A stretch of DNA of 61,362 nt, filler included, from Malassezia furfur (GCA_052055015.1; 9 parts of 9 records of this genome joined end to end with filler, not necessarily neighbours in it); one strand, 5' to 3'; positions 865-61,362 are shown, counted from the whole stretch's first letter. A program made the numbers and translations. Notes: generated by a model from the sequence alone, not told the origin.

Positions 865-2310
865 ATGCTCCGCCACGGTCTCGCCCACGTCCGTCTCACG
901 CTTGCGCGCGCACCTGTGCGCCCGGCCTGGCCCTCGGCGTGCCATGCCCCGGCGTTGGCCCGTGCTCACAGCACGCCTACCGGGCCCCCCACTCCGATCC
1001 CGCGGCATCGCGTCGTGATCGTCGGCGCAGGCTTCGGTGGAATGACGACGATCAACGCACTGCGTGGTGCGCCCGTCGATATCACGCTGATCGACCGCTC
1101 CAACTGCCACCTGTTCCAGCCGCTCCTGTACCAAGTAGGCACGTGCGATCTCGGCACAAGCGACATTGCGTGGCCCATCCGGCACCTGGTCGCGTCGCGC
1201 CCGGAAATCACCACGCTCCTCGGCGAGGTGGATAGCGTCGACAAACACGCACGCTTGGTGCACATCAAGGACGACGCCGATCCCATCCCGTACGATACAC
1301 TCGTCCTTGCGACCGGCGCACGCGACGCCTTCTTTGGGCACGACGAGTGGGAGCACATTGCCCCGGGGCTCAAGACGCTGCGCGACGCCACGACCGTGCG
1401 CCGACGCCTGCTCGTCGGGTTCGAGCTTGCAGAGCGAGTCGCCGATCCGGAGCTGCGCAAGTCGCTCATGACATTCACCATCATCGGCGGTGGGCCGACG
1501 GGCGTCGAGCTGGCGGGCGCCATTGCGCAGATGGCGCACCGCACACTTCCGCACGAGTTCCGGAAGATTGACACACGCGACGCACGCATCGTCCTCATCG
1601 AGGCCGGCACACGCGTCCTTAGCTCCTTCCCAGAAGATCTCTCGGCGTATGCCAAGCGCGCGCTCGAGGACCTCGGCGTCGAAGTCAAGCTGAACCAGCC
1701 GGTGTCGGACTTGCAGGTAGACCGCGTCGTCGCTGGCAACGAGACCATCCCGTGCTCGACCATCTTCTGGGCCGCCGGCGTCCAGGCGTCCGTCGCACAC
1801 CGCTGGATCTCCGCGCCGACCGACAAGGCGGGGCGCATCCAGGTCGAGCCGGACCTTTCGGTGCCGCACCACCCCGAGATCTTTGCGATCGGCGACACCG
1901 CCGCGGTGCACAACGCGGACGGCAGCCCGGTGCCGGGCATTGCCCCTGCCGCCAAGCAGATGGGCAAATATGTGGGGAAACTCGTGCGCAGCCGCATCCA
2001 TGGCGAGCCGGCGCCTGCACCGTTCCGCTACGTGGACATGGGCAGCCTCGCGACCATCGGCAAGAACAAGGCGGTAATTAGCTACAAGGGATTCAAGCTT
2101 CGGGGCTGGATCGCTTGGTGGATGTGGGGGCTCGCACACATTTACTTCCTCATCAGCGTCCGCAGCCGCCTGAGCGTCGCACTCAACTGGCTCTGGAACT
2201 TTACGCGCAACTTTCGCGCCTCTCGCGTAATTACGCAGGACCCGTTCCAGGACTTTCCCAAGGGCTTTCCGGAAAGCGTTTCGAAACGCCGCCAACGTGA
2301 GAATCCATAG
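865..2310 (+). CDS. ndh: Type II NADH:quinone oxidoreductase (NDH-2), bacterial-type, with a putative N-terminal mitochondrial presequence; intronless
   Basis: ATG at 865 (MLRHGLAHVRLTLARAPVRPAW..., Arg-rich, no acidic residues). Then VVIVGAGFGG, DRSNCHLFQPLLYQV, YDTLVLATGA, GGGPTGVELAG, FAIGD, PGIAPAAKQMG and a C-terminal WWMWGLAHIYFL membrane segment. Confidence 0.9.
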   Translation: MLRHGLAHVRLTLARAPVRPAWPSACHAPALARAHSTPTGPPTPIPRHRVVIVGAGFGGMTTINALRGAPVDITLIDRSNCHLFQPLLYQVGTCDLGTSDIAWPIRHLVASRPEITTLLGEVDSVDKHARLVHIKDDADPIPYDTLVLATGARDAFFGHDEWEHIAPGLKTLRDATTVRRRLLVGFELAERVADPELRKSLMTFTIIGGGPTGVELAGAIAQMAHRTLPHEFRKIDTRDARIVLIEAGTRVLSSFPEDLSAYAKRALEDLGVEVKLNQPVSDLQVDRVVAGNETIPCSTIFWAAGVQASVAHRWISAPTDKAGRIQVEPDLSVPHHPEIFAIGDTAAVHNADGSPVPGIAPAAKQMGKYVGKLVRSRIHGEPAPAPFRYVDMGSLATIGKNKAVISYKGFKLRGWIAWWMWGLAHIYFLISVRSRLSVALNWLWNFTRNFRASRVITQDPFQDFPKGFPESVSKRRQRENP

Positions 2311-2560
2311 CGGCGCAGCAAAGCTTGGCGAGGACCGCGCATAAACACGGCGAGACGTTTGCGCCAGCACGAAACACACGTTTATACGAGGAATGCCATC
2401 TATATCGTAGGATCCACGCTGCGCTCGAGCCTAGGGCACTCTGAACAGCCAGCGCCAGTGTCCTCCACCATGCCAAAATTCGATAAAAAGGCCCAATTTC
2501 CTCTGACTGTGGAGGCTCGCCCCGCATCCCTACCATGCCAAGCTCGACTTTCCTTCGCCC

Positions 2561-4095
2561 CTAGACACGCGCAAAACTACCTTGTTGCAGCGCTTCCACA
2601 ATCTCGGAGCGCCAACGAGCAATACGTTTCTGGTGTCCGGCCTCGAAAATTTGCATCCACGCTGGGTCAAAGGGAGGTAGTGGGCGTCCCGGTCCGTCAT
2701 TTCCTGCAAGGTTTCGAATCGTCTCGAAATACTCTTGAAACTCGGGGAAGAGGGCTGTGAATTTCGGACCATTGCCGCGCACCTTTATACGATCCATCTC
2801 CCACTGCTCTTGCTCAACTCGGGGAGGCAAGTGCGCTCGGCCGGCCAACACACGACTGGCAAGCACGGCCTGCCACTCGAACGCTTTAAAGGTCAATCCA
2901 GCGGCAATCTGCATGCGTTAGCAATAACGACACACGCATACGTACCGCTCCCACGAATGCCAAAGTAGAATCATTTATGTTGAATACGTGCAGATACAGT
3001 CCATTGACCCTGTTTCCATCCAGGCACAAGTCCGGCAAATAAGGATAGCTGTAGCGATAGCCTGTTGCAAAAATGATTTTGTCGACCCGGTTTGCCACAG
3101 AGCCATCGCGAAAATACACCGTGCGCTCTGCTGGCGCAATGTGGCTGATCTCGGAACGACGAACAATCCCGGGATGATTCAACGCTGCATCTCCAAAGAA
3201 CGGGTGAACGGTGCCTCGTGATGACGACACCACAGGCGACTTGGCCATGCCGATCAAGTCATGCGCGATGTCCATACCCGACACGGATGAACCGACTACG
3301 ACCACATTCTGGCATGAGCACGAGTGTGGTATACCTTACCATATTTCGATAATGCTCCCGATGCCGATAGTTTTTCGCATGTTCCACCGTAAAGGGATAC
3401 AATTGCTCGAACGCAGCCAGGCCTGGGATGTCGGGGAGGTTGGGCACATTGTAGTGTCCCGAGCACACGACAAGCGCATCAAAGCGCTCCTGCCACCAAT
3501 AATCAAGATCATCATCCGACCGCCGAAGGGTCAAGACCCATTCGGTACCCTGCTTCTCCGCTTTTTCAACCGTGGTGTTGTACTCAACCAGCTTCTCGTA
3601 GCCTTTTCGCTCACATAGGCTTTGGATGTATTGCTGAATCACGCTGTGGTGACGGAAGGGGGTCGTGGGACCATACGCGGCAATGGATGCCTCGGATCGA
3701 ATTTCTGGGATCGGCTCCTCGGTAAACTCCATGGCTCTGGCGTCCACATTCGACTCAAGGTAGGGATACGTTGGCGTATGTGCGTAACGTTCTTGCTGAC
3801 CTTTTTCCTTATAGCAGGGAAGTTTTTTCGGTAAATTAAGAGGCGGATCAAGTTGGGAGAGCTCAGCAATTCCTACAGGCAACCGACGCGACGAGGGGTT
3901 TTCGTCCAAAAGCCTAGAGTGTTAGCCTTTCCATGCACTAGGCCATACGTACCATACACCTCCAGCCTTTTCACGCCGCTCAAACACCTTCACAACGTCA
4001 AATGCCTTCTCGCGAACCAAGGAGTCAAGCGCAATGGCACCAGAGGGCCCAGCACCAATCACTGCTACACGCTGAACGTGATGCTCACGAGCCAT
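2561..4095 (-). CDS. Flavin-containing monooxygenase (FMO/thiol-specific monooxygenase-like), 4 exons
   Basis: MAREHHVQRVAVIGAGPSG...FERREKAGGVW, CSGHY, HAKNYR, VVVGSSVSGMDIA, IIFATGY, LAFVGA|IAAGLTFKAFEWQAV. Introns 3914-3952, 3309-3339 and 2909-2945 restore a continuous frame. Confidence 0.88.
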
Positions 4096-4522
4096 GTTTT
4101 GTAGCGTAGCAGAGGGGAACGCAGATACCTATCTGAAACACTATCCTTTAAACTTAGGAAGGGCATCCAGCCAATACAGAGGTCCACACTACAGGTGCGA
4201 CGGTCAAGAGCACGCACGTATCATGACGTGCTCTTGTGTGGAATTTTGCGACATCGTGGAGAAGCACGTGGCTGGAAGTAGGCACGGAGATCGAGTTCCT
4301 AGGTCGCCCCACAACCATTTTCTCCACACGCAATGCTCTCCTGCTTTATTTTGTCATTCATCAGCATCATGTGATTGACCTCACTCATTGTCCTTCTCAC
4401 GCAGCAACATAACATTTGCCCTATACCTACTCCATCTTGCGTGGTTTTGGCTAGATCCAGAAACACTTTATGTAATCTAGGAACACACTATCATCGGTAC
4501 GATGCACTCGTAATTGATCTAC

Positions 4523-6179
4523 TTAGACGTCACCAACCTTGTCTTTCACCGGCTCCATCCCTGCCATACGGGACTTTTGACGTAAACTTGCACCAAACTT
4601 GTAAAACATGGCAGTTATTGGCAGCAGCAAAAGTGCCAACCCGCCAAGAAGGCTGCATCCGCCCTGAATGATGAGCTTTTTAAACATTTGTGTGGAGAAA
4701 AGAGGAAATGCACCACCCGCTAATGCACGGAACAGTCCGTTGCTTGCATAGGCTGAAGCAGTATACACTGGGTACATTTCTCCCAAGTATCCAAGAAATC
4801 CCTGGAAAAGGAGAAATATGGCGCACTGGAACACTCCGTAGGCCGCGAGGGGTGCATAAACAGGTACACCAGAAAAGGATGTCCAGCCAAACTTTGTGAG
4901 TGCTTCACTATGCTAACGTACCCAAAAAAGCGAAATTGGAACTAAGACTCCACCGACAAAACACGCCTGCATTCTGTATTCCGGCTTCCACTTGCCTGAT
5001 TTGAACCACGGAAGGACAAGCCTTTGGTTGTAAATGCAATACAATATCAAAGCAACTGCGCACACGATCCAACCCGTCACGTAGGCACTGCTAGATTGAC
5101 CTAGTGAGAGTTGGTGGCGCCCCTGAAATGTCTGTTTGTAAGCAAAAATTCGAGGTTGTTTCGTACAAGGGGAAAGGCTTCAAAACTGTTGTTAGCAAGG
5201 GCTCAAACACATACAAGCAGTAGGTAATCCCATAAACATAGGTAATATAAAGGTTGCTAAAGAACAGAACGGGTTCCGTAAACGTCATGTGCAAGGGTCG
5301 AAACAGAGTACTGTAAGCAAGCTGGCTCAGTGTAAGCTGAGCGTCGCGGTCTTCCCCTCGCGAGTGAATGTTTGCGTTCCCGGTAATGCGGCGTAAGACG
5401 CGGGCCCGATGAGTGAGGATCGAATCCGCATTCGTCTCGGGCATGAAAAAGAAGGCAATGAGCCATGTGAGTCCTGTTCCACAGAGTAATGGCCAGATCA
5501 TCCAACGCCATCCTTTCTCCTGAACAGCAAATCCCGATAACAGTGGGCCCATTCCAGGACCACCGCATGCTGCATATGACCAGCATGCAATTCCATTCAT
5601 GAATCCTCCGTCAAGATTCCAAATGTCGCCCATTGTCGCACCCCCTGTAGCTAGAACAGGACTTTCAAGAAACCCAGCGATGAAACGCAAAATCATAAAG
5701 CCTGCGACGTTGTTGCATTGTGCCATGGGGATTTGCATAATGACAAATAGCCCAATACTCACAACGTATGGCCAATTGCGGCCAATGCGGGCAACCTCGG
5801 TAATAGGTGATAGGATCATCGGCCCGAGTCCATAGCCCCATACGAATAGAGAAATGCTCAAGGAGGAGGCGGTTTCCGATATGCCGAACACCTCGCTGAA
5901 TTCAGGAATGCCTGGTACAACGATACTGCTTCCAAGATACACAAACACCGTCATCAAGCAAACCAGAAATGTCACGAAACATTTGTAGAGAAAAGGCCAG
6001 TTTTTGGGATTTTCGGGATCATCGTCTCCGTTCCAATCCACTTAGAGACTCTCTTGTGTACCAAAATAACTTGGTGGTTTGCTCTTTCCCTGCACGATGC
6101 TCTTCTCAAAACGCGTCTTGAACAAATGCTGACCACTAACCAAATACACCACGTTACCGAAAGCAGTGGTAGCAAACAT
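4523..6179 (-). pseudogene. DHA1-family MFS drug:H+ antiporter, otherwise intact but with one in-frame TAA at codon 46
   Basis: ATG at 6179 (MFATTAFGNVVYLVSGQHLF...QESL), TAA at 6042-6044, then VDWNGDDDPENPKNW, GYGLGPMILSPITE..IGR, PEYRM, SLFW|FGWT, YTASAYASNGLFR. Introns 5186-5214, 5132-5166 and 4892-4921. The family call is firm; pseudogene status is less certain. Confidence 0.65.
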
Positions 6180-6760
6180 AGGAGTCGGTCAGTTTGCGTG
6201 AAACGCAAATATTGGCTAGTCTCGGACTAGTAGGAGCCACCACTTTTGAAGTAGAGCTGTCATTTATCGGACTCATTGGAGTAGCACGGCAGCGGGGTAG
6301 GATAGCCAATGTGATCATGAACTTCGGCGTTAACTAAGGTTTCCCTGTCTTTCTCAATGACGCAATTCTCTCAGATGTTACATAAACGCAATCTGCATTT
6401 AGTGAGTCTAAATTTAGCTCGTCCAATAAACATTTGCGCATCGACAGAAATTATTGCACATATCCATAACGAAAAGTAGTCTTTACTATACACGATGATT
6501 GATTGGAGGAAATGGAGGGAATTTTGCGTGAAACGTGCAACGTAGGTAGGCGTACCCTACACCATGTGGTTACGGAGTTAGACTATCGCCGGGACGAAAT
6601 GGGAGCGCGGCCTCGGATATTGGCTAACACCGCAAACGTTTCGGGAGATAGAACAATAATCAATGTTGGCGCGCAAATAGAGATTGTTTTGGGGTGGAAC
6701 GTCTGTGTTTGACAAGAGCATAGCGTAGCTTTCATTTTTGGCTGTTTAATTCTGACATGA

Positions 6761-6833
6761 ATGGGAATAGGAATAGGAATTAGGATTAGGATTAGGATTA
6801 GGATTAGGATTAGGATTAGGATTAGGATTAGGA
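6761..6833 (+). repeat. Telomeric repeat array (TTAGGA)9 preceded by degenerate ATGGGA/ATAGGA units
   Basis: Nine perfect TTAGGA copies at 6780-6833 run to the contig end with the G-rich strand pointing outward; variant units at 6761-6778. Confidence 0.88.
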
Positions 6834-6933
6834 NNNNNNNNNNNNNNNNNNNNNNNNNNNNNNNNNNNNNNNNNNNNTTAATTAATTAANNNNNNNNNNN
6901 NNNNNNNNNNNNNNNNNNNNNNNNNNNNNNNNN
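6834..6933. other. Artificial contig linker
   Basis: N44-TTAATTAATTAA-N44 (stops in all six frames). Confidence 0.98.
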
Positions 6934-7526
6934 ACGCCGCAGTGTGATCTTGTGCGGCTTGGGCGACTCGGCGCGCTCCTCTTTGGGCACGCTGCTCTTG
7001 GCGACCGACTCGGCGAGGCGCCGGCGCTTGGCGTCTGCCGCGTCATCCGGCGCACTGCGCTTCTCGGCCTTTGTTTCGCCCGCAAGCCATGCGTCGTACA
7101 CGTCGGCACTCGCCTCCTTGATCACCGCCTGGGTCAGTGCGCTCCACTTACATGCAAGTCGCGCGCCTGGAGCCAAATTTCGCTGTCGCGCATATTAAAC
7201 CGTTTCGCGTTGTTGCAGATCAGCTCAAAGTCGTGCTTGACGTCCGAAAACGTCGTGTACTCGTGCTGCTTGAGCCGCGTCTTGATATCCGTGAGCGTCA
7301 TGGGCTTCTTGATCACCACGTAGTATTCGGGGTACTGGCGCCGGCTGGGCAGGCGCATGAACGGCTCCGCCAGCGCAACCCCCTCGCGGTCCTTGGCGCG
7401 CAGCACACGCTCGAGCATCTGCTGCCCCATTTTCGTGACCTGCTCGACGGTGGGCACGGGCGCCTCCGACCCCGTGCTCCGCCGCGCGCTCTTGCGCACC
7501 TCGTCCGGCTTCGCGGCGATCGTCAT
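6934..7526 (-). CDS. Bromodomain protein (RSC/polybromo-like), 3'-truncated by gap
   Basis: LAEPFMRLPSRRQYPEYYVVIKKPM...DFELICNNAKRFNMRDSEIW. A 23-nt intron 7129-7151 (GTAAGT..CTGAC.CAG) joins it to the downstream frame. Confidence 0.8.
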
Positions 7527-9797: not shown

Positions 9798-10463
9798 ATG
9801 TCCATGCTGCGACAACTCCCCCGTTCTCTGCGCCCTGCGCTCCGCGCGCGCCCTGGAATGCACAGTGAGCGTGCCATGCTCAGTGGCGTGCGCGCCACGC
9901 GCGCATACTCGAGCCAGGCTGGGCATGGTCCCAAGCAGCAGAACGATGCGCCGTGGGTGATTTCGTCGATCGCCGTGTTCGGTCCGCTTTTCGCGTACGT
10001 GACGAGCCTGGATATGGGCGGCGAGCATCACGATGCACACGGCGAGAAGAGCCACGCAAAGAACGAGGATGACGATGCTGCCGATGAGGGCGCGCAGGAA
10101 GAGCCGAAGGAGTCGGACGCAGGTGACGACGCCAAGGAGAGCGACGATGAGAAGGAGGCGCCCAAGGAAGAGAAGGAGTCGAAGGAGGAGTCGAAGGAGG
10201 AGTCGAAGGAGGAGTCGAAGGAGGAGTCGAAAGAGGAGTCGAAGGAAGAGCCGAAGGAGGAGTCGAAGGAGGAGTCGAAGGAGGAGCCGAAGGAGGAGTC
10301 GAAGAAGGACGATGCGCCTAAGGACGAGTCGTCGGAAGACAAGGGTGCCAGTGAGTCCAAGTTGGGCGACCAGTCGCAAGAATCTGGGGAAGACGCTAAG
10401 GAGTCGTCTACGGATGCATCGGAAGGCAAGTTGAAGGAGTCGTCGGACGACGAGTCCAAGTAA
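9798..10463 (+). CDS. Hypothetical protein: mitochondrial-like presequence, one hydrophobic segment, acidic EESK-repeat tail
   Basis: MSMLRQLPRSLRPALRAR...RAYSS, DAPWVISSIAVFGPLFAYV, then E/K/S/D-rich low complexity. Confidence 0.7.
   Translation: MSMLRQLPRSLRPALRARPGMHSERAMLSGVRATRAYSSQAGHGPKQQNDAPWVISSIAVFGPLFAYVTSLDMGGEHHDAHGEKSHAKNEDDDAADEGAQEEPKESDAGDDAKESDDEKEAPKEEKESKEESKEESKEESKEESKEESKEEPKEESKEESKEEPKEESKKDDAPKDESSEDKGASESKLGDQSQESGEDAKESSTDASEGKLKESSDDESK
10185..10304 (+). repeat. Coding 12-bp tandem repeat (GAGGAGTCGAAG)x10 encoding EE[S/P]K
   Basis: Ten near-identical units read directly. Confidence 0.92.
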
Positions 10464-10877
10464 ATATGGTATAGCTGCCTTCCCTTACGCGATGGGTGGG
10501 CCGTGGAGCTGCCGCGCCCCTCGTGAAGCGCACCTTGCACGCGCCGCCGTAGCGAGTAGATCTTGGAAGATGCCGCGCGCACGGCGCACTTTCATTCGGC
10601 CGAGTGATGGCATCGATCGGCGGGCGGGGCGATTCGGGAAATATGATGTGCGTGCGGCGGCCGCGCGCGGCAGGCCCGGTGTTCGGCCGAAGCAGGCGTT
10701 TGCTGGCAGCGCACGGCGGTGGGCATTCCGGGTGGTTTCGGTGGAGACGTTCGCTGCAATTGGCTGGCGGCCCGCTGCTGGATTACCGGGCACCCAACCC
10801 GGGCCATGCGGATTCGGGCGTAGGCCTAGGCTTCTTTCTTGCCCTTTCACCTCTTTCTTAGAGCGAAACCTAGCGCC

Positions 10878-14294: not shown

Positions 14295-14932
14295 ATGCGA
14301 ACAATCAAATGTATGTATGGAGATGGTGCGCTCATGCAGGTGTGGTTGTGGGTGCCGTCGGCAAGACGTGCCTTTTGATCTCGTATACCACGAACGCGTT
14401 TCCGGTACGTTGACGGGCGCAGGCGCTCATAATGCAGAGCGAATATGTGCCTACAGTCTTTGACAACTATTCGGCCAACGTCATGGTTGATGGCAAGCCC
14501 GTGAGCCTCGGGTTATGGGACACGGCGGGCCAAGAGGACTACGACCGGTTGCGTCCTTTGTCGTACCCCCAGACGGATGTGTTTCTGATCTGCTTCTCGA
14601 TCGTGTCCCCTCCGAGCTTTGAGAACGCCAAGACCAAGTGGTGGCCAGAAGTGTCCCACCATGCGCCCGATACCCCCATCATTCTCGTGGGCACCAAGCT
14701 CGATTTGCGCGAAGACCCAGCTGTGAACACGCGTCTTCGCGAGCGGCGTATGGCCCCCATCACGTACAGTCAGGCGAGCCAGATGGCGAAAGAGATCCGT
14801 GCTGTGCGCTATCTCGAGTGCTCGGCGCTCACTCAAAAAGGGCTGAAAGGCGTGTTTGACGAAGCGATCCGATGTGTGCTGTCCCCCAAGCCTGTGAAGC
14901 GCCGAAAGGGGAACAACTGCATCGTGCTCTAA
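14295..14932 (+). CDS. RAC1: Rho-family GTPase Rac1 (P-loop appears to lack Asp-Gly)
   Basis: [38 protein letters not shown]...[23 protein letters not shown]...[11 protein letters not shown] (CAAX). Introns 14311-14339 and 14405-14437. Confidence 0.9.
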
Positions 14933-20696: not shown

Positions 20697-22156
20697 TTCA
20701 GCAGCGCGTGCACCACCTGGTCGGGGATGGCGGGCGCGTCGAGCGCCACGGGCCACGCCCAGCGCACGGGCGCGAGCACCACGGCGAGCACCGCCTCAAA
20801 TACGGGGTCGGTGACGCGGCGCAGCGCCTGTGCGGGCAGCAGCACCAGGTCGAGCACACGGAAGCCCAGCAGGCGGCCGGCACAGTAGGGGATCGCGACA
20901 AACACCGTTATCACCGACACCGCGAGCGCCTGCACGAGCGCGAGCGTCTGCAAAAAGTTGACAAACGGGCCAAGCAAGCCGATGGCCTCCAGCACGCTCT
21001 CGATGTCCTCCGCAAAGTGGTCGCCGCCATCGACGTCGTCCCAGCCAAACTCGTCGTCCTCGTCGTCGTCGACGTCGCGCACCGCGGCGGGCAGCACCGC
21101 GTGTGCGTCGACGTGCGCGGCAAGGTCGTGTGCGCGGTCAGCCTCGAGCGACGCGTCGCTGTCCGTCTCGTCGACCCACTCGTCGTCCGCACCGGTCGCG
21201 TCCGGCGCGCCCGCCGGCTCGTCGTCGGTCCACGCATCCTCGTCGGTGTCCGCCGCCGCGCCCCACGCAGCAGCAGGCGCGGGCCGCGGCACGCCCGGCT
21301 CCACGACGGGCGCATGGGCGTTCGGCGCTTGGAGCAGCGCCGCGCGCGCCAGGTCGTCGTACGCCATCTGCCCGGGGTCCGCGGCGAGCATGTGCTCTGC
21401 ACGCGCCTGCGCGGTGGCAAGCGCCGCCATGCGCATGCGCTCGCGCGCCGCGTCCTCGGCCGGTGCGGGTGCGTCGTCGTCGAGCGGCGCCGGCGCCTCG
21501 GGCACATTGTGCACGACCCACTCGCGCAGCAGCAGCACGGCGACGAACGAGAGCACGACGCTGACGGTCACGACGACCGACGTGACCCACGTGTCGGTGA
21601 CCTCGTCGAGCACGCGCCGCGCGAGCGCCATCAGCGACGCAAGCAGCGCACGTGGCGACGACCACACGAGCGACGGCCACGGCGCGGCGTGTGCCGCCGC
21701 GGCGCTCGCGCGGAAGATGTGTGTGCCGAGCACGGCGTCGGTGATGCGGTCGCCGACGTTGAAGTACATGCGCCACACGCGGTACGTCGTGTACGGCACG
21801 AGCAGCAGCCACGCAAACGCAACGACCGCTGCACGCACGACATACGTGACGGTCTGCGCGGTGCGCCACGCAATGTAGCGCACATACAGCCACACAGGCA
21901 GCGTTCCCGGCGGCATCGAGTGGGTATAGCGCTTGTGGAACACAAACGAGTAGTTGCACAGCTCGCAGTACGTCTTTTGGCTGTGCTGGAGCCATTGCAC
22001 GAGGCTGCGTCAGTCGGCACACACGTACCACTCCTGGTGGCAGTACTGGATACTCCCGCTGCAGCGACATGGGCGGTACAGCGGTACACCAGGCTCTTCC
22101 TCCATGCGGCAGATGCGGCAGGTGGGCACATCAGGCACCGCCTCGACGCCAGCCAT
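20697..22156 (-). CDS. DOA10: RING-CH ERAD E3 ligase Doa10/MARCH6, 3'-truncated
   Basis: CRICR...LYRPCRCSGSIQYCHQEC|LVQWLQHSQKTYCELC (24-nt stop-containing intron 22005-22028), TM segments, LLREWV, EAIGLLGP. Confidence 0.88.
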
Positions 22157-34394: not shown

Positions 34395-35061
34395 CTGTGA
34401 TGACCGCCATGCGGATGGTGCCGCCCGACGAGCCGTCGCGGCGCATGGCCAGGCTGAGCGCTGTGGGTGAGCGTGGGCCACGTACCGTTCTGGACAAACT
34501 TGAGCGTCTCGTCCTTGTTCCAGCCCGGCCGCCAGTTGGCGTCGCAGAAGCCGTAGATGTACGCCGACCCCGAGCCGCCGATGGCCCACGGCTGCTCAAA
34601 CACGCCGCCGCCGAGCGGAATGTTGAACACGCGGCCGCCGTGCAGTTTGTCCCAGCCGGCGACAATGATGCCTGCGCTGAGCCGGTCCTTGTTCTGGTAT
34701 ATCAGCTCCTGGAACAAATTCGCCGCGACGTCGGTCGGCGGCTGCATTTCCTGCGTGACCGAGTAGAGCTGCAGGTGGTAGGTGACCACGTCCGCGAGCG
34801 CCTGCGTGTCGGCCGCCGAGCCCGAGCGGCAGCAGTAGATGCGGTCCGCGAGGTGCGTGAGCTTGTCGGTGACGCGGTTTGCCTTGGTCAGCTGCGGTGC
34901 GACGCACAATGTATGCTCCCATCGTCGTGCGCGAGTCGGCGCCAATCACCACGCCGCCGTCAAACGCCACGGCCATGATGGAGGTCTGCTGTGAGCGGTG
35001 TGCGACGTACGCCGAGGTCCACCTCGCCCTTCTTGAGCCGCGTCAGGTCGATCGCGTCCAT
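34395..35061 (-). CDS. PRE3: 20S proteasome beta1 subunit, 3'-truncated
   Basis: RLKKGEVDLG|TSIMAV..GADSRTTMGAYI|ANRVTDKLT...CRSGSAADTQ...GGSGS...|RDGSSGG; three ~25-nt introns. Confidence 0.95.
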
Positions 35062-57443: not shown

Positions 57444-58073
57444 ATGGCGAGCGACGCGCGTGCGGTGGGCGCGGAAGCGAGCGTACCGGCGCCATCGAGT
57501 GCATCGGTACGCCCGACGGCGGAGAGCAGCGAGGCTGCACCGACACAGCAGGAGCTGCAGTTTGCGCGTGCCACCTACATAATCCTCGCAATGTGGCCGG
57601 CGATGCGCCAGGCCGTACTCGAGATGTGGGGTGGCCCCGAGTCCGAGGAAAAGCGCGACTTTTTGCTGTCGCACCTGTGTGATGAGTACGGCACGGGGAA
57701 GGGGAAGCTGCCAGACATGGACGACCTTACGGACCTGCTGGAAAACTACCTAGCCGAAGAGTACGACTGCCAGCTCGAAGACGACAGCGCGGCGCTCGTG
57801 GCACTCCATGTGTGCAACACGTACAAGGCCGTATTTGAGGAGCAGCACGGCACCGAATTCCTCAAGCAGCTTGAGGAAGCGTTTGCTAAGGTGAGCAAGT
57901 CGAGCGTCAAGAACCAGACACAAGAGCTCTCCGAGGATGACGACGCGGAGGAAGAGGATGCGCCCGACGTAGCTACACCTGCCACCTCTGCCCCGCGCGC
58001 ATCTGCGCCGCGGCCCGAGCCCGAGATTGACGAGGACGGCTTCGAGACCGTAGTGAGCCGCCGCCGGCGTTAA
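57444..58073 (+). CDS. TSR2: Pre-rRNA processing protein Tsr2 (WGG domain)
   Basis: WPAMRQAV..MWGGPESEEKRD, EEYDCQLEDDS, DEDGFETV. Confidence 0.92.
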   Translation: MASDARAVGAEASVPAPSSASVRPTAESSEAAPTQQELQFARATYIILAMWPAMRQAVLEMWGGPESEEKRDFLLSHLCDEYGTGKGKLPDMDDLTDLLENYLAEEYDCQLEDDSAALVALHVCNTYKAVFEEQHGTEFLKQLEEAFAKVSKSSVKNQTQELSEDDDAEEEDAPDVATPATSAPRASAPRPEPEIDEDGFETVVSRRRR

Positions 58074-58115
58074 TTTCGTAGCTCCTCCACTTGCCCCCAC
58101 GCGCCGCTGCGCGCG

Positions 58116-60884
58116 ATGGACGACGAGGCGGACGCGTCCTCGCTGTTCTTCCACGCGAGCCAGTCATCCAATGCGTCAGGTGAGCACCCTAGGCGCCTGG
58201 CACACCTTGCGGCGTCGTTCAGACTCACCGACGCCGAGATCGCCTTCTTCGATGCGGTCGTTGCGTCGCTGCCCGACGCTTCCGACGGCTTTGGGCATCT
58301 GAAGCGCGCGTACGATGCGCAGATGCGCGTGCCAACACTGGTGCACTCCGTCGCACGCGCACTGGATGTTGGACCAGACGACACAACGGCGGTCGATGCG
58401 CGGCTATGGAATACGCTCCTTGCGCTTGTCCAGGTGCGAGGCCATACATGGGCGGAGCGTTGGGATGCCGTGCGCGTTTCGCTGGGACTTGACCCTTGGG
58501 TGTCGGATGAAGACGACTCTTACTCGATGCATGAGCTTACGCGTGCGCTGCAGACACCGGCCCCGCCGGCGCACACCCCGGGGCCGTCGGCATGGGCACA
58601 GTACGATGCACCCTCTGCAACATACTCCCCTTGGTCGTCGCCGCGCAGCGTGTCGAGCGGCGATACTCACGACATTCCAAGTTCTCAGTGGATGCAACGC
58701 AGTGCTTCGCCGATGCGTGTTGGCGAGCTACAGCGTGCGCCGCTACCGACCGCGGCGTCGCTCGCATGGACCCCACACACGGCCCGCAGCAGGACGAGTC
58801 GCTCGCTGTATAGCAACGTGTCTGATGACGAGGTCGATGCGCCCTATGACTGGCGCGCTGCGCGCCGTTTAGGTACTGCCGAGGCTTGGAGTGCTACCCG
58901 TCTTCTCGGCCGCATGCTCCATCATTGGCGCACGGCGCTCCAAGCACGTCACGAGGCGATTGCTGGTGCAGCTCGAGCACACGACCGGTGTGTGGTGTCG
59001 CAGTGCCTGACCACCTGGCGCACGGCAACAAAGCAGGCAAAAAAGCGGCGCATGCTCGCTGCGGCGTATGCGGACCGTGCGCTGCTGCACCGCGCATGGA
59101 CTCACTGGGCGCGCCGCTGGACGGCGCTTCTCGATTCGCGGCGCGCCGAGCATCGCGCTATGCTGCGTGCGGCGTTTTACGAGGTGGAAACCCGGCGCAG
59201 CCGAGCGATCATCGCCGTTGCATGGACGGTATGTTGCTGACTTACCTAGCTCTGGCGCCAAGCGAGCGATCGGCACCTTGCCACGGCTGTTTGTGCCGCA
59301 CGGAGGAAGCAGGCGGCATTTGCAACCTGGCGTGCGCGGTCTGAAGATGCACGGGTACTGTCGGAGCGTGGTGCGGCTTTCCGTCGCCGTCGTGCACAGC
59401 GTACGCTACGCGATAGGTGGATGCGGTGGGCACGGCGCACCGAGGATCGCCGTGCACTCGCTGTGGCTACCGAACAGCGCCACATGCGGCAACAGTACAC
59501 AGCGTGGTCGACATGGCGCACGCGCCTTGCCCATGTCCGAGCGCTGGACGTGCGGGCCGAGGCGTGGGCCGACGCTGCTGCGCATCTGCATCTGCGTGAC
59601 ACGCTGCGCCGCTGGCAACTGCGTACGCGTGCGGCGGACGCTCTGCGTGCAGCAGATACACAGATTGTGCAGGCAGCATGGCGGACGTGGTGGGTCCGCT
59701 TCACCGAGCGCACCGTCGCCTGGCAGGGTACGTCGCTTCCTCACACAGACTATCAGGCGAACGCCGAGGCACAATGGGCGCGGCGGCGCACCGAACGTGC
59801 CTGGACGCACTGGGCGCAGCGCACCGCACACTGGGAGCGACAGGCGCAGTACGCGGTACGCACGCATGCGAAGCGGATGCTCTGGGCCGCGTACGTTCAG
59901 TGGGCTGCGCGCGCGCAGGCTCATAGAGAAGCGGCGCTGCGTGCGGACGCAGCTGCGCGGCTGCGTACGCTGCGTGGCGCATGGCGGCAGTGGCGCTCGG
60001 CGCAGCAGGCGGCGCACGCACGCCGCTTACGCGCTGCGCATGCAGCGCGGCTGCGGGGCGACGTGTTCCAAGCGTGGCGCTTGCGTGCCGCCCAGGCACA
60101 GCACTGGCGCACTGGCACCGCGCTACTCGAGGCGCAGACCGCCGCGCGCGTCCAGCGGACGTTCCTGGCACAGTGGCTCCGCCGTGCGCGTGCGCGTCGC
60201 ACTGCGTACCTGGAGGCGGCGCAGCATGCCGACACGCAATGTGCTGCGCGCGCCCTGGCGCACTGGCGCGCTCGGTGCCGCACCGTGCGTGCGCACACGG
60301 GCATGGCGGATGCCTTGCGTGCCGCTTATGACCAAGGTACGTGGCCGACTCACCAGACCGTGCACGGCATGCGTTGCATACTTGGGTACGTGCGCACCGG
60401 CTTGGTACGCTCGAAACCGCATGGAAAGCGGCGCGCGACGGCCACAGGCGCGCCGCGGCCTGGGAGCAGTGGCGCGACGCGTTGGCGCATGCGGCGCTCT
60501 CGTACGAGGTACGTGCGACGCTCACGCCAGGAATATGCGACGCTTGCAGCGCGGCGGCGGTGGATGCTGCGCCGCTGCTTTGCGCATTGGCTCGGCCGCA
60601 CGAGTGTGTTGCCTGCCGTGGAGCACCGGCGGAGCGCATTGCAGGCCCACGCGCTGCGCCGGTGGGTGGACAGGCTGCGTGCGCGGCAGCGCGAGGCGAC
60701 CGCGCGTGCGTTTGTCCAGGCGACCGTGCTGCGCGATGCACTCGCGACGTGGCGCGCCAAGCGCGCGTACCTCGCCGAGTTGCGTGCCGTCCAAGGCCTA
60801 CACACACGCGCGCGGCGCACCTCGTCGGACACGCACTTTCGGCGGCGGCTTGCGTTTGTGGCGCCCACGGCGCGTTTCTCGTAG
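58116..60884 (+). CDS. SFI1: Spindle pole body half-bridge protein Sfi1 (Trp-periodic centrin-binding repeats)
   Basis: Many A-x7-L-x3-[FW]-x2-W[RK]-type repeats. Introns 59229-59249, 59728-59748, 60337-60356 and 60509-60530 give a continuous repeat protein. Confidence 0.82.
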
Positions 60885-60889
60885 CGGCT

Positions 60890-61362
60890 CTACTTACGCG
60901 AGACATGGTACGAGCTCGCCTGGTTCGTCGGCAAGATGAGCACGTCGGCGATGTTGACGTGCGGCTTGCGACTCGCGGCCCACACGACCTCCTCAGCAAT
61001 GTCTTCGGCGGTGAGCGGCTCGATGCCCTCGTAGACCTTATCAGCGGCAGACTGATCGCCGCGGTAGCGCACAAGGCTGAACTCGGTCTCGACCATGCCT
61101 GGCTGGATCTCGCTCACGCGGATCGCCGTATCGACCAGCTCCATGCGCAGTGCAGTGGTGAACGAGTGCAGCGCGGCCTTCGACGCGCAGTACACCGATC
61201 CGCCCGGATACGGATTCACCCCCCCGATGGAGCCGAGGTTGATGATGTGACCCGCGTTGCGCGCCTTGAACTCGCGCACGAACTGCTGCGTGATGTGAAT
61301 CAGGCCATGCACGTTGGTGTTGAGCATGCGGTCGATCGCGTCCGGCTTGACGTCGCCGACGC
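60890..61362 (-). CDS. Classical SDR, YdfG/YMR226C-like NADP-dependent 3-hydroxy acid dehydrogenase, 5'-truncated
   Basis: NTNVHG, INLGSI, YPGGSVYCASK (YxxxK), IQPGMVETEFSLVR, PLTAEDIAE. Confidence 0.88.
   Translation of the reverse strand, partial: VGDVKPDAIDRMLNTNVHGLIHITQQFVREFKARNAGHIINLGSIGGVNPYPGGSVYCASKAALHSFTTALRMELVDTAIRVSEIQPGMVETEFSLVRYRGDQSAADKVYEGIEPLTAEDIAEEVVWAASRKPHVNIADVLILPTNQASSYHVSRK

What the first reader, a model, noticed from the sequence alone, without database searches (positions are those of the whole stretch)
60337..60530. A 20-nt intron paired with a 22-nt intron hides a frame-switched SFI1 exon
Seen: removing GTACGTGGCCGACTCACCAG (60337-60356, 20 nt) and GTACGTGCGACGCTCACGCCAG (60509-60530, 22 nt) replaces a junk-like stretch of the ORF-track frame with DRARHALHTWVRAHR...RRAAAWEQWRDAL, two more Sfi1 repeats. 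The total of 42 nt keeps the unspliced frame open as well, so the exon is formally dual-frame. The branch A would be intron base 16, only 4 nt from the 3' end. Inference: the shortest intron in the window and near the known lower limit outside ciliates and nucleomorphs.
Basis: partly seen in the sequence, partly recalled or inferred. Interest (0 to 1): 0.8.

Follow-up and report, generated by a model that had tools for sequence, protein, structure and literature searches.

The report
Two tiny introns in Malassezia SFI1
A spindle-pole gene of a Malassezia-type skin yeast is interrupted by introns of only 20 and 22 bases that flank a small exon read in a shifted frame, which looks real but is normal gene architecture for this yeast genus.

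Summary
The 20-nt and 22-nt GT-AG segments sit exactly where stated. Removing both puts a 152-nt exon (60357-60508) into a frame that continues the Sfi1 repeat pattern.

No RNA data could be reached, so the support is computational:
- Codon statistics favour the spliced frame (+15.9) over the unspliced frame (-13.2).
- Glycine plus proline is 4% in the spliced frame and 18.5% in the unspliced frame, against 1.9% in the rest of the repeat region.
- All 7 distant orthologues tested carry the exon's sequence contiguously and score higher against the spliced model.
- The NCBI protein of Malassezia brasiliensis already has this spliced form.
- A second, slightly different assembly reads the same lengths, so no base is missing.

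The window comes from a yeast of the Malassezia furfur clade. Intron-like motifs of 20-29 nt (mode 22) are the rule here: 26 strict matches against 0.14 expected by chance. The gene has two more introns of 21 nt each.

The 20-nt intron is the shortest in the window, by one base. It combines the smallest donor-to-branch spacing seen (A at base 16) with the shortest branch-to-acceptor tail (4 nt; usual 5).

The open "dual frame" is what this GC-rich gene gives by chance (82%).

Verdict: real, but an ordinary extreme of a known tiny-intron genome.

The parts
58116..59228 (+). SFI1 orthologue, exon 1: the ATG, the conserved N-terminal domain and the first repeats
   Evidence: The start matches the MDDEADASS... 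start of P0003 and P0004. Pfam Sfi1 gives E 4.3e-4, below the cutoff. The N-terminus is conserved across 4 sequences.
59229..59249 (+). Intron 1, 21 nt, GTATGT...CTGACTTACCTAG, with an in-frame TGA
   Evidence: The ORF 58074..59240 ends inside it. The motif is listed. Distant orthologues P0009 and P0010 read AWT/LW across this point without an insert.
59250..59727 (+). Exon 2
   Evidence: The translation is continuous with the orthologues.
59728..59748 (+). Intron 2, 21 nt, GTACGT...CTCACACAG, phase 1, with no in-frame stop
   Evidence: It is a strict motif match. P0004 lacks these 7 residues, whereas P0003 and the ORF calls P0002 and P0005 read through them.
59749..60336 (+). Exon 3, ending in phase 1
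60337..60356 (+). Intron 3, 20 nt, GTACGTGGCCGACTCACCAG. The putative branch A is base 16, 4 nt before the 3' end.
   Evidence: The frame change across it is required by codon statistics and by homology.
60357..60508 (+). Exon 4, 152 nt, with codons starting at 60359. It encodes about 51 residues, roughly one and a half Sfi1-type W repeats.
   Evidence: The codon LLR is +15.9 in this frame, against -13.2 and -25.4 in the other two. BLASTP hits fall at the syntenic place in 6 orthologues with E 6e-4 to 0.05; the best hit of the other frames has E 0.48. Identity to P0004 is 86%. G+P is 4%, against 18.5% in the unspliced reading.
60509..60530 (+). Intron 4, 22 nt, GTACGTGCGACGCTCACGCCAG, phase 0. 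The putative branch A is base 16, 6 nt before the 3' end.
   Evidence: It is a strict motif match. The joined sequence ...SYE/EYATL... is contiguous in P0007, P0009, P0052, P0055 and P0025.
60531..60884 (+). Exon 5, with the TAG stop at 60882-60884
   Evidence: Pfam Sfi1 scores 22.9 bits against a cutoff of 22. The C-terminus is highly conserved.

Best explanation
The window is from a Malassezia yeast close to M. furfur and M. brasiliensis. The gene at 58116-60884 (+) is its SFI1 orthologue, the centrin-binding protein of the spindle pole body. It has five exons and four spliceosomal GT-AG introns of 21, 21, 20 and 22 nt, and encodes 894 residues.

Introns 3 and 4 have lengths of 2 and 1 modulo 3. 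Exon 4 is therefore read two bases out of register with the genomic ORF track, and register returns after intron 4.

Inferred mechanism: each intron is essentially three signals placed end to end. These are a GTAYGT donor, a spacer of at least 6 nt, and a CTSAY branch box joined to the YAG acceptor. The 20-nt intron has the shortest spacer and the shortest tail seen in the window.

Shown here: the motifs, the frame, the homology and the length distribution. Inferred: actual splicing, use of A16 as the branch point, and the protein's function.
For: 1. Organism and gene. The best named hits are M. furfur (71% identity) and M. brasiliensis (70%) proteins, with Pfam Sfi1. Pfam Sfi1 scores 27.5 bits on the 544-aa ORF and 22.9 bits on exon 5, against a cutoff of 22.

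2. Motif. There are 26 strict matches against 0.14 expected. The relaxed scan gives 33 GTAYGT candidates of 30 nt or less, 20-29 nt long, median 23, mode 22.

3. Frame of exon 4. The codon log-likelihood ratio is +15.9 in the spliced frame. True-frame 150-nt windows of the same gene average 16.5 (sd 6.8). The unspliced frame scores -13.2, and off-frame windows average -18.5 and -22.7. GC at codon positions 1-3 is 0.74/0.62/0.72, against 0.72/0.61/0.71 for the gene.

4. Composition. G+P is 11/588 in the other repeat exons, 2/50 in the spliced exon and 12/65 in the unspliced reading (binomial P 3.5e-9).

5. Homology. In the MAFFT alignment exon 4 lines up with contiguous sequence of P0007, P0009, P0010, P0052, P0055, P0025 and P0054. 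The spliced model outscores the unspliced model against all 7 (246/184, 271/198, 196/171, 230/185, 232/181, 230/160, 307/265). The four other models (one intron only, or exon skipped) lose the conserved C-terminus, with scores of 33-108.

6. The NCBI protein P0004 of M. brasiliensis carries the same spliced sequence, 86% identical over exon 4.

7. The ORF call P0005 from a more distant species reads through a GTACGT...CTCAC segment at the same position and stops 29 residues later. In that species the unspliced frame is closed.

8. The ORF call P0002 (100% identity over its BLAST alignment, but two residue differences from the window on reading it) has the same frame through both introns. This argues against a missing base.
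Against: P0004 is a gene prediction, not an experiment. It also removes a 36-nt segment equivalent to 59891-59926 that other orthologues keep as protein, so that pipeline may over-call tiny introns.

The M. furfur annotation P0003 models the region differently: exon 4 is skipped and the intron-4 equivalent is read as protein.

The distant orthologues carry no names. Their own gene models, spliced or intronless, could not be inspected because the listing of cluster members was off.

The individual BLASTP E-values for the 50-residue exon are modest (6e-4 to 0.05 in a 10-protein database).

A branch A only 4 nt from the 3' end is unusual; 22 of 38 candidates have 5 nt and none other has 4. A16 is inferred from the motif alone. 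CCGAC with A12 is a weaker alternative.
Confidence: 0.88

Rival explanations
1. There is no splicing at these two sites. The uninterrupted ORF 59250..60884 is translated as it stands, and 60336-60530 encodes a divergent, non-repeat linker.
For: The frame is open through the region. Prokaryote-style ORF calls such as P0002 exist in the databases. Retaining both introns keeps the conserved C-terminus in frame.
Against: The codon LLR is -13.2 in that frame. G+P is 18.5% against 1.9%. The alignment score is lower against 7 of 7 orthologues. No syntenic BLASTP hit was found. Openness is expected by chance (82%). Both boundaries carry the full intron motif.
Confidence: 0.04
2. Both forms are made. 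Splicing of such minimal introns is incomplete, and the doubly retained mRNA, which keeps the frame and has no stop, escapes nonsense-mediated decay and yields a minor protein isoform.
For: 20 + 22 = 42 nt with no in-frame stop. Intron 2 (21 nt) is also stop-free and is read through in other annotations. The introduction of PMC13644364 (passage seen) says that extremely short introns in Microsporidia are spliced inefficiently.
Against: There are no expression data. Openness of the off-frame is the chance expectation here, so nothing suggests selection for a second isoform. The retained segment is rich in glycine and proline, which would break the repeat pattern.
Confidence: 0.15
3. One longer intron removes exon 4 altogether, as the M. 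furfur annotation P0003 implies for its own gene.
For: P0003 goes from ...AAYDQ through 8 residues to EYATL.... GT at 60337 and AG at 60507-60508 or 60529-60530 are available.
Against: In this window both skipping models (60337-60508 and 60337-60530) shift the frame and lose the conserved C-terminus, scoring 33-49 against 196-307. Exon 4 is conserved as protein in 7 orthologues. In one search, whose search pattern itself capped candidate length at about 53 nt, the longest candidate was 44 nt.
Confidence: 0.02
4. The frame switch is an assembly artefact: an indel in one or both segments.
For: The two lengths are one base below and one above the common 21 nt.
Against: P0002, from another assembly with two amino-acid differences elsewhere, reads the same residues through both introns and exon 4 in the unspliced frame. 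The lengths are therefore reproduced. Codon statistics independently require lengths of 2 and 1 modulo 3.
Confidence: 0.02

Closest known systems
Tiny spliceosomal introns of Malassezia genomes (M. sympodialis curated annotation, M. restricta re-annotation)
   Same: The genus and the compact genome are the same, and so are very short GT-AG introns. In M. sympodialis the mean is 30 bp, with 5271 of 5350 introns supported by RNA-seq (PMC5389616, Table 2 passage). In M. restricta the mean and median are 37.2 and 30 bp (PMC9241646, Table 1 passage). Annotators set the minimum intron length to 20 and then 15 (PMC6473144, passage).
   Different: The candidates in this window are shorter still (median 23, mode 22, minimum 20). 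None of the passages I read gives a minimum length or describes the branch/acceptor layout. The intron-size figure S8 of PMC5389616 is a picture, so its values could not be read.
M. brasiliensis hypothetical protein MBRA1_001031 (P0004, NCBI; UniRef name 'Sfi1 spindle body domain-con...')
   Same: It is the orthologous gene. Its protein contains exon 4 in the spliced frame, flanked exactly as in the two-intron model, and is 86% identical over the exon.
   Different: It is a prediction of only 586 residues. It lacks about 300 internal residues and also removes a 36-nt segment that other orthologues keep.
Sfi1 of budding and fission yeast and human (Pfam PF08457)
   Same: Pfam matches lie above the cutoff. 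There is a long run of Trp-centred repeats about 25-33 residues apart, almost free of Gly and Pro.
   Different: The sequences are very divergent and Arg/Ala-rich, with weak Pfam scores (22.9-27.5 bits). Centrin binding is inferred from the family and was not tested.
Ultra-short introns of ciliates and myxozoans
   Same: The size class is similar. Paramecium averages 25 nt (abstract of 10.1101/2021.08.05.455221 in the listing). Myxobolid myxozoans have medians of 22-27 bp, and Stentor has 15-16 bp (PMC13644364, abstract and passages).
   Different: These lineages are unrelated. The signals here are strong and fungal in type (GTAYGT, CTSAY), whereas PMC13644364 reports reduced splice-site motifs in myxobolids.
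Fused branch-point/acceptor motif of Trichomonas and Giardia introns
   Same: The branch box lies immediately next to the 3' AG.
   Different: The organisms differ, and the tail there is longer. This comparison comes from memory only.

Membership tests
Spliceosomal GT-AG intron of the Malassezia tiny-intron class | GT at the 5' end and AG at the 3' end | tested here: met
   Both segments meet this.
Spliceosomal GT-AG intron of the Malassezia tiny-intron class | Local donor consensus GTAYGT and branch box CTSAY a few bases before YAG | tested here: met
   Both have GTACGT and CTCAC. The consensus comes from 33 window candidates. The 20-nt intron has a tail of 4 nt instead of the usual 5.
Spliceosomal GT-AG intron of the Malassezia tiny-intron class | Removal restores a reading frame that is coding by statistics and conserved in orthologues | tested here: met
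Spliceosomal GT-AG intron of the Malassezia tiny-intron class | Spliced junctions seen in RNA | not testable with these tools
Spliceosomal GT-AG intron of the Malassezia tiny-intron class | Intron position conserved in related species | tested here: inconclusive
   Only proteins were available. P0005 and P0003 read through GT-ACG-type residues at the place of intron 3, and P0017 reads through an ...LMQ stretch just before the place of intron 4. No orthologous DNA was found.
Sfi1 (PF08457) | Pfam model match at or above the gathering score | tested here: met
   The ORF 59250-60884 scores 27.5 bits and exon 5 scores 22.9 bits, against a cutoff of 22. The orthologue P0009 scores 57.9 bits.
Sfi1 (PF08457) | Array of Trp-containing repeats with regular spacing that forms one long helix | tested here: met
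   With exon 4 spliced, the spacings of the motif Trp residues are 33, 29, 32, 25 and 29. Unspliced, a gap of 47 appears. G+P is 1.9%. The helix itself was not modelled.
Sfi1 (PF08457) | Binds centrin at the spindle pole body half-bridge | not testable with these tools
   This is inferred from family membership only.

The most novel reading that the evidence does not exclude
Yeasts of the M. furfur clade may have a modal intron length of about 22 nt, with a hard architecture. The branch A never lies before base 16, and the branch box is joined to the acceptor (CTSAC-N-YAG, A usually 5 nt from the end). That would place a fungus with strong canonical signals among the shortest-intron eukaryotes. 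The 20-nt SFI1 intron (15 nt from donor to branch, 4 nt from branch to end) would mark the working lower limit of that spliceosome. I found no paper that describes this layout. One search returned 1 paper, on another fungus, judged from its title and abstract only. Searches found none.
Probability: 0.4. Interest if true: 0.5.

Novelty: new member of a known kind. Interest (0 to 1): 0.3.

Why it matters
For annotation, these introns are short enough for pipelines to miss them. When their lengths add up to a multiple of three, a wrong protein passes unnoticed. The M. furfur model skips the exon and reads two 21-nt introns as protein. ORF callers read straight through. The M. brasiliensis model seems to over-splice elsewhere.

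For splicing biology, a 20-nt intron with a full-strength donor and branch box and only 4 nt between branch A and the acceptor is a convenient natural substrate. It could be used to ask how little RNA a fungal spliceosome needs. It does not change what is known in kind.

Tried and rejected
- Whole genome: none is held.
- Names and sources of the distant orthologues: the database is off.
- Orthologous DNA: two metagenome scans, with N-terminal and C-terminal alignments, found 92 and 117 pattern matches. None was confirmed as a relative.
- Second and third homologue searches: these returned only the three proteins already in hand, then P0004 alone.
- Earlier scan notes: nothing on this genome or on Malassezia.
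- Rival splice models: 20 only, 22 only, skip 60337-60508 and skip 60337-60530 all lose the conserved C-terminus.
- Internal GTACGT at 60386: it has no branch box or acceptor and is absent from the census.
- A 20-nt candidate at 22005-22024(-): rejected. Codon statistics and the RING-type motif fit the 24-nt version.
- An 18-nt candidate at 14405-14422: set aside. Its only branch-like A would be at base 9, below the minimum of 16 seen elsewhere, and the 33-nt version fits the motif.
- Dual-frame coding as a selected feature: rejected as chance.
- Depletion of 3n introns: the sample is too small to test.

Full report
**Observation**

The sequence at 60337-60356 is a 20-nt segment, GTACGTGGCCGACTCACCAG. 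The sequence at 60509-60530 is a 22-nt segment, GTACGTGCGACGCTCACGCCAG. Cutting both out, together with two further 21-nt segments upstream, gives one open reading frame from the ATG at 58116 to the TAG at 60882-60884. It encodes 894 residues. The genomic frame also stays open without splicing, as ORF 59250..60884.

**Organism and gene**

- The best named relatives of the ORF are hypothetical proteins of Malassezia furfur (71% identity, Pfam Sfi1) and Malassezia brasiliensis (70%; UniRef name begins 'Sfi1 spindle body domain').
- Pfam Sfi1 is matched above its cutoff by the 544-residue ORF (27.5 bits) and by the last exon (22.9 bits; cutoff 22).
- A distant orthologue, P0009, scores 57.9 bits.
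- The neighbours are a TSR2 gene ending at 58073, only 42 nt before the SFI1 start, and a convergent short-chain dehydrogenase gene. The dehydrogenase ORF ends at 60890, 5 nt beyond the SFI1 stop.
- So this is a very compact Malassezia genome, about 65% GC.

**Is the motif real?**

- The pattern GTACGT-N4-16-CTSAY-N1-5-YAG occurs 26 times in the window. The expectation is 0.14, and no shuffle of 100 had more than 1.
- A relaxed scan lists 46 candidates. Of these, 33 are GTAYGT candidates of 30 nt or less. They are 20-29 nt long, with median 23 and mode 22.
- These are motif candidates. Only some were checked for frame.
- The branch-like A lies 5 nt before the 3' end in 22 of 38 GTAYGT candidates. 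It lies 4 nt before the end only in 60337-60356.
- In one search the branch-like A lies at base 16 or later in 32 of 33 candidates. The exception is base 12 in intron 1 (59229-59249), which also offers CTTAC with A at base 16.
- The 20-nt intron therefore combines both minima. It is the shortest in the window by one base; there are five candidates of 21 nt.
- A competing 20-nt candidate at 22005-22024(-) is wrong. Codon statistics and a RING-type motif fit the 24-nt version.

**Is exon 4 read in the shifted frame?** Four independent tests agree.

1. Codon usage. The model was trained on the gene's other exons.
   - The frame starting at 60359 scores +15.9. True-frame windows average 16.5 (sd 6.8).
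   - The unspliced frame scores -13.2 and the third frame -25.4. Off-frame windows average -18.5 and -22.7.
   - GC by codon position matches the gene only in the spliced frame.
2. Composition. The repeat region has 1.9% Gly+Pro (11/588). The spliced exon has 4% (2/50). The unspliced reading has 18.5% (12/65, P 3.5e-9).
3. Homology.
   - An HMMER search of 1.84 billion representatives with P0004 gave 71 relatives, and I read 12 of them.
   - Seven have contiguous sequence across the region: P0007, P0009, P0010, P0025, P0052, P0054 and P0055. Exon 4 aligns to that sequence, and the W-x-x-W-R-D motif sits directly before the conserved E-[EL]-x-A-x-L-A-A-R-R.
   - BLASTP of the three frames against 10 orthologues puts the spliced frame at the syntenic place in six of them (E 6e-4 to 0.05). 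The other frames reach no better than E 0.48 and show no positional agreement.
   - The spliced model outscores the unspliced one against 7 of 7 orthologues. Models with only one intron removed, or with the exon skipped, lose the C-terminus.
4. Repeat spacing. With the exon spliced, the motif Trp residues follow at 33, 29, 32, 25 and 29 residues. Unspliced, there is a gap of 47.

**Is a base missing?**

P0002 is an ORF call from another assembly. It differs from the window at two residues, and one of those changes the last base of exon 3. It reads the same residues through both introns and exon 4 in the unspliced frame, so both lengths are reproduced. Codon statistics also require lengths of 2 and 1 modulo 3.

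**What is not special**

- Dual frame: the off-frame that the unspliced reading uses has only 3 stops in 894 codons, and 82% of 51-codon windows are open. The 'dual frame' is therefore the chance expectation.
- Published tiny introns in Malassezia:
  - The curated M. sympodialis annotation has a mean intron of 30 bp, with 99% supported by RNA-seq (PMC5389616, Table 2 passage).
  - M. restricta has a median of 30 bp (PMC9241646, Table 1 passage).
  - Its annotators set minimum intron lengths of 20 and 15 (PMC6473144, passage).
  - A review says the genes contain 'very short introns' (PMC7426719, passage).
- The M. brasiliensis protein in NCBI already carries the spliced exon.
- Median intron lengths of 22 bp are now reported even in animals (PMC13644364, abstract).

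**What remains open**

- I could reach no RNA, peptide or orthologous DNA evidence.
- P0004 is a prediction that also removes a 36-nt segment others keep, so it is not independent proof.
- The branch point is inferred from the motif only.
- No paper I could search describes the Malassezia branch/acceptor layout or a minimum intron length. One search found 1 paper, on another fungus, judged from its title and abstract only. Searches found none. The intron-size figure of PMC5389616 is a picture, so its values could not be read.

**Verdict**

It is the lower extreme of a known tiny-intron genome rather than a new kind of thing. Its practical value is as a warning for annotation: the M. furfur and M. 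brasiliensis models both appear to err at this locus. It is also a natural minimal substrate for splicing studies.

Noticed in passing
window 59891-59926 (+): This 36-nt GTACGT...CTCATAG segment lies inside exon 3. Its equivalent is spliced out in the M. brasiliensis protein P0004. M. furfur P0003 keeps it as protein, and it aligns to a Trp-repeat stretch in P0005. It is probably coding, so the P0004 model probably over-splices.
   Followed up: partly
P0003 (M. furfur annotation), compared with window 59229-59249, 59728-59748 and 60337-60530: The M. furfur gene model reads both 21-nt intron equivalents as 7-residue inserts (VRRRLTQ and GTSLSHT). It also skips the equivalent of exon 4. Stop-free 3n tiny introns go unnoticed by pipelines.
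   Followed up: partly
window 58073-58116 and 60884-60890: Gene packing is extreme. There are 42 nt between the TSR2 stop and the SFI1 start, and 5 nt between the convergent SFI1 and short-chain dehydrogenase reading frames. Promoters and 3' ends must therefore overlap neighbouring genes.
   Followed up: no
window about 2300-7000: This block has much lower GC: 38-55%, against about 65% elsewhere. It holds an FMO-like monooxygenase gene (-, about 2564-3921) and an MFS transporter gene (-, about 4526-6041). Candidate introns here are longer (27-39 nt) and use CTAAC branch boxes. The origin of the block is unexplained.
   Followed up: partly
window 34986-35010 (-): The candidate intron ends in CTCACAGCAG. 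The first AG follows the branch box directly (22 nt, A only 3 nt from the end). A second AG lies 3 nt further on (25 nt). This is a tandem acceptor that keeps the frame either way.
   Followed up: no
window 22005-22028 (-): This is a 24-nt intron in a RING-CH-type gene, with a second GT-G-T-G-T donor-like site 4 nt inside it. Codon statistics favour the 24-nt form.
   Followed up: yes
window 10001-10500: This 500-nt bin has a strong strand asymmetry: GC skew +0.37 and AT skew +0.46. I did not look at it.
   Followed up: no
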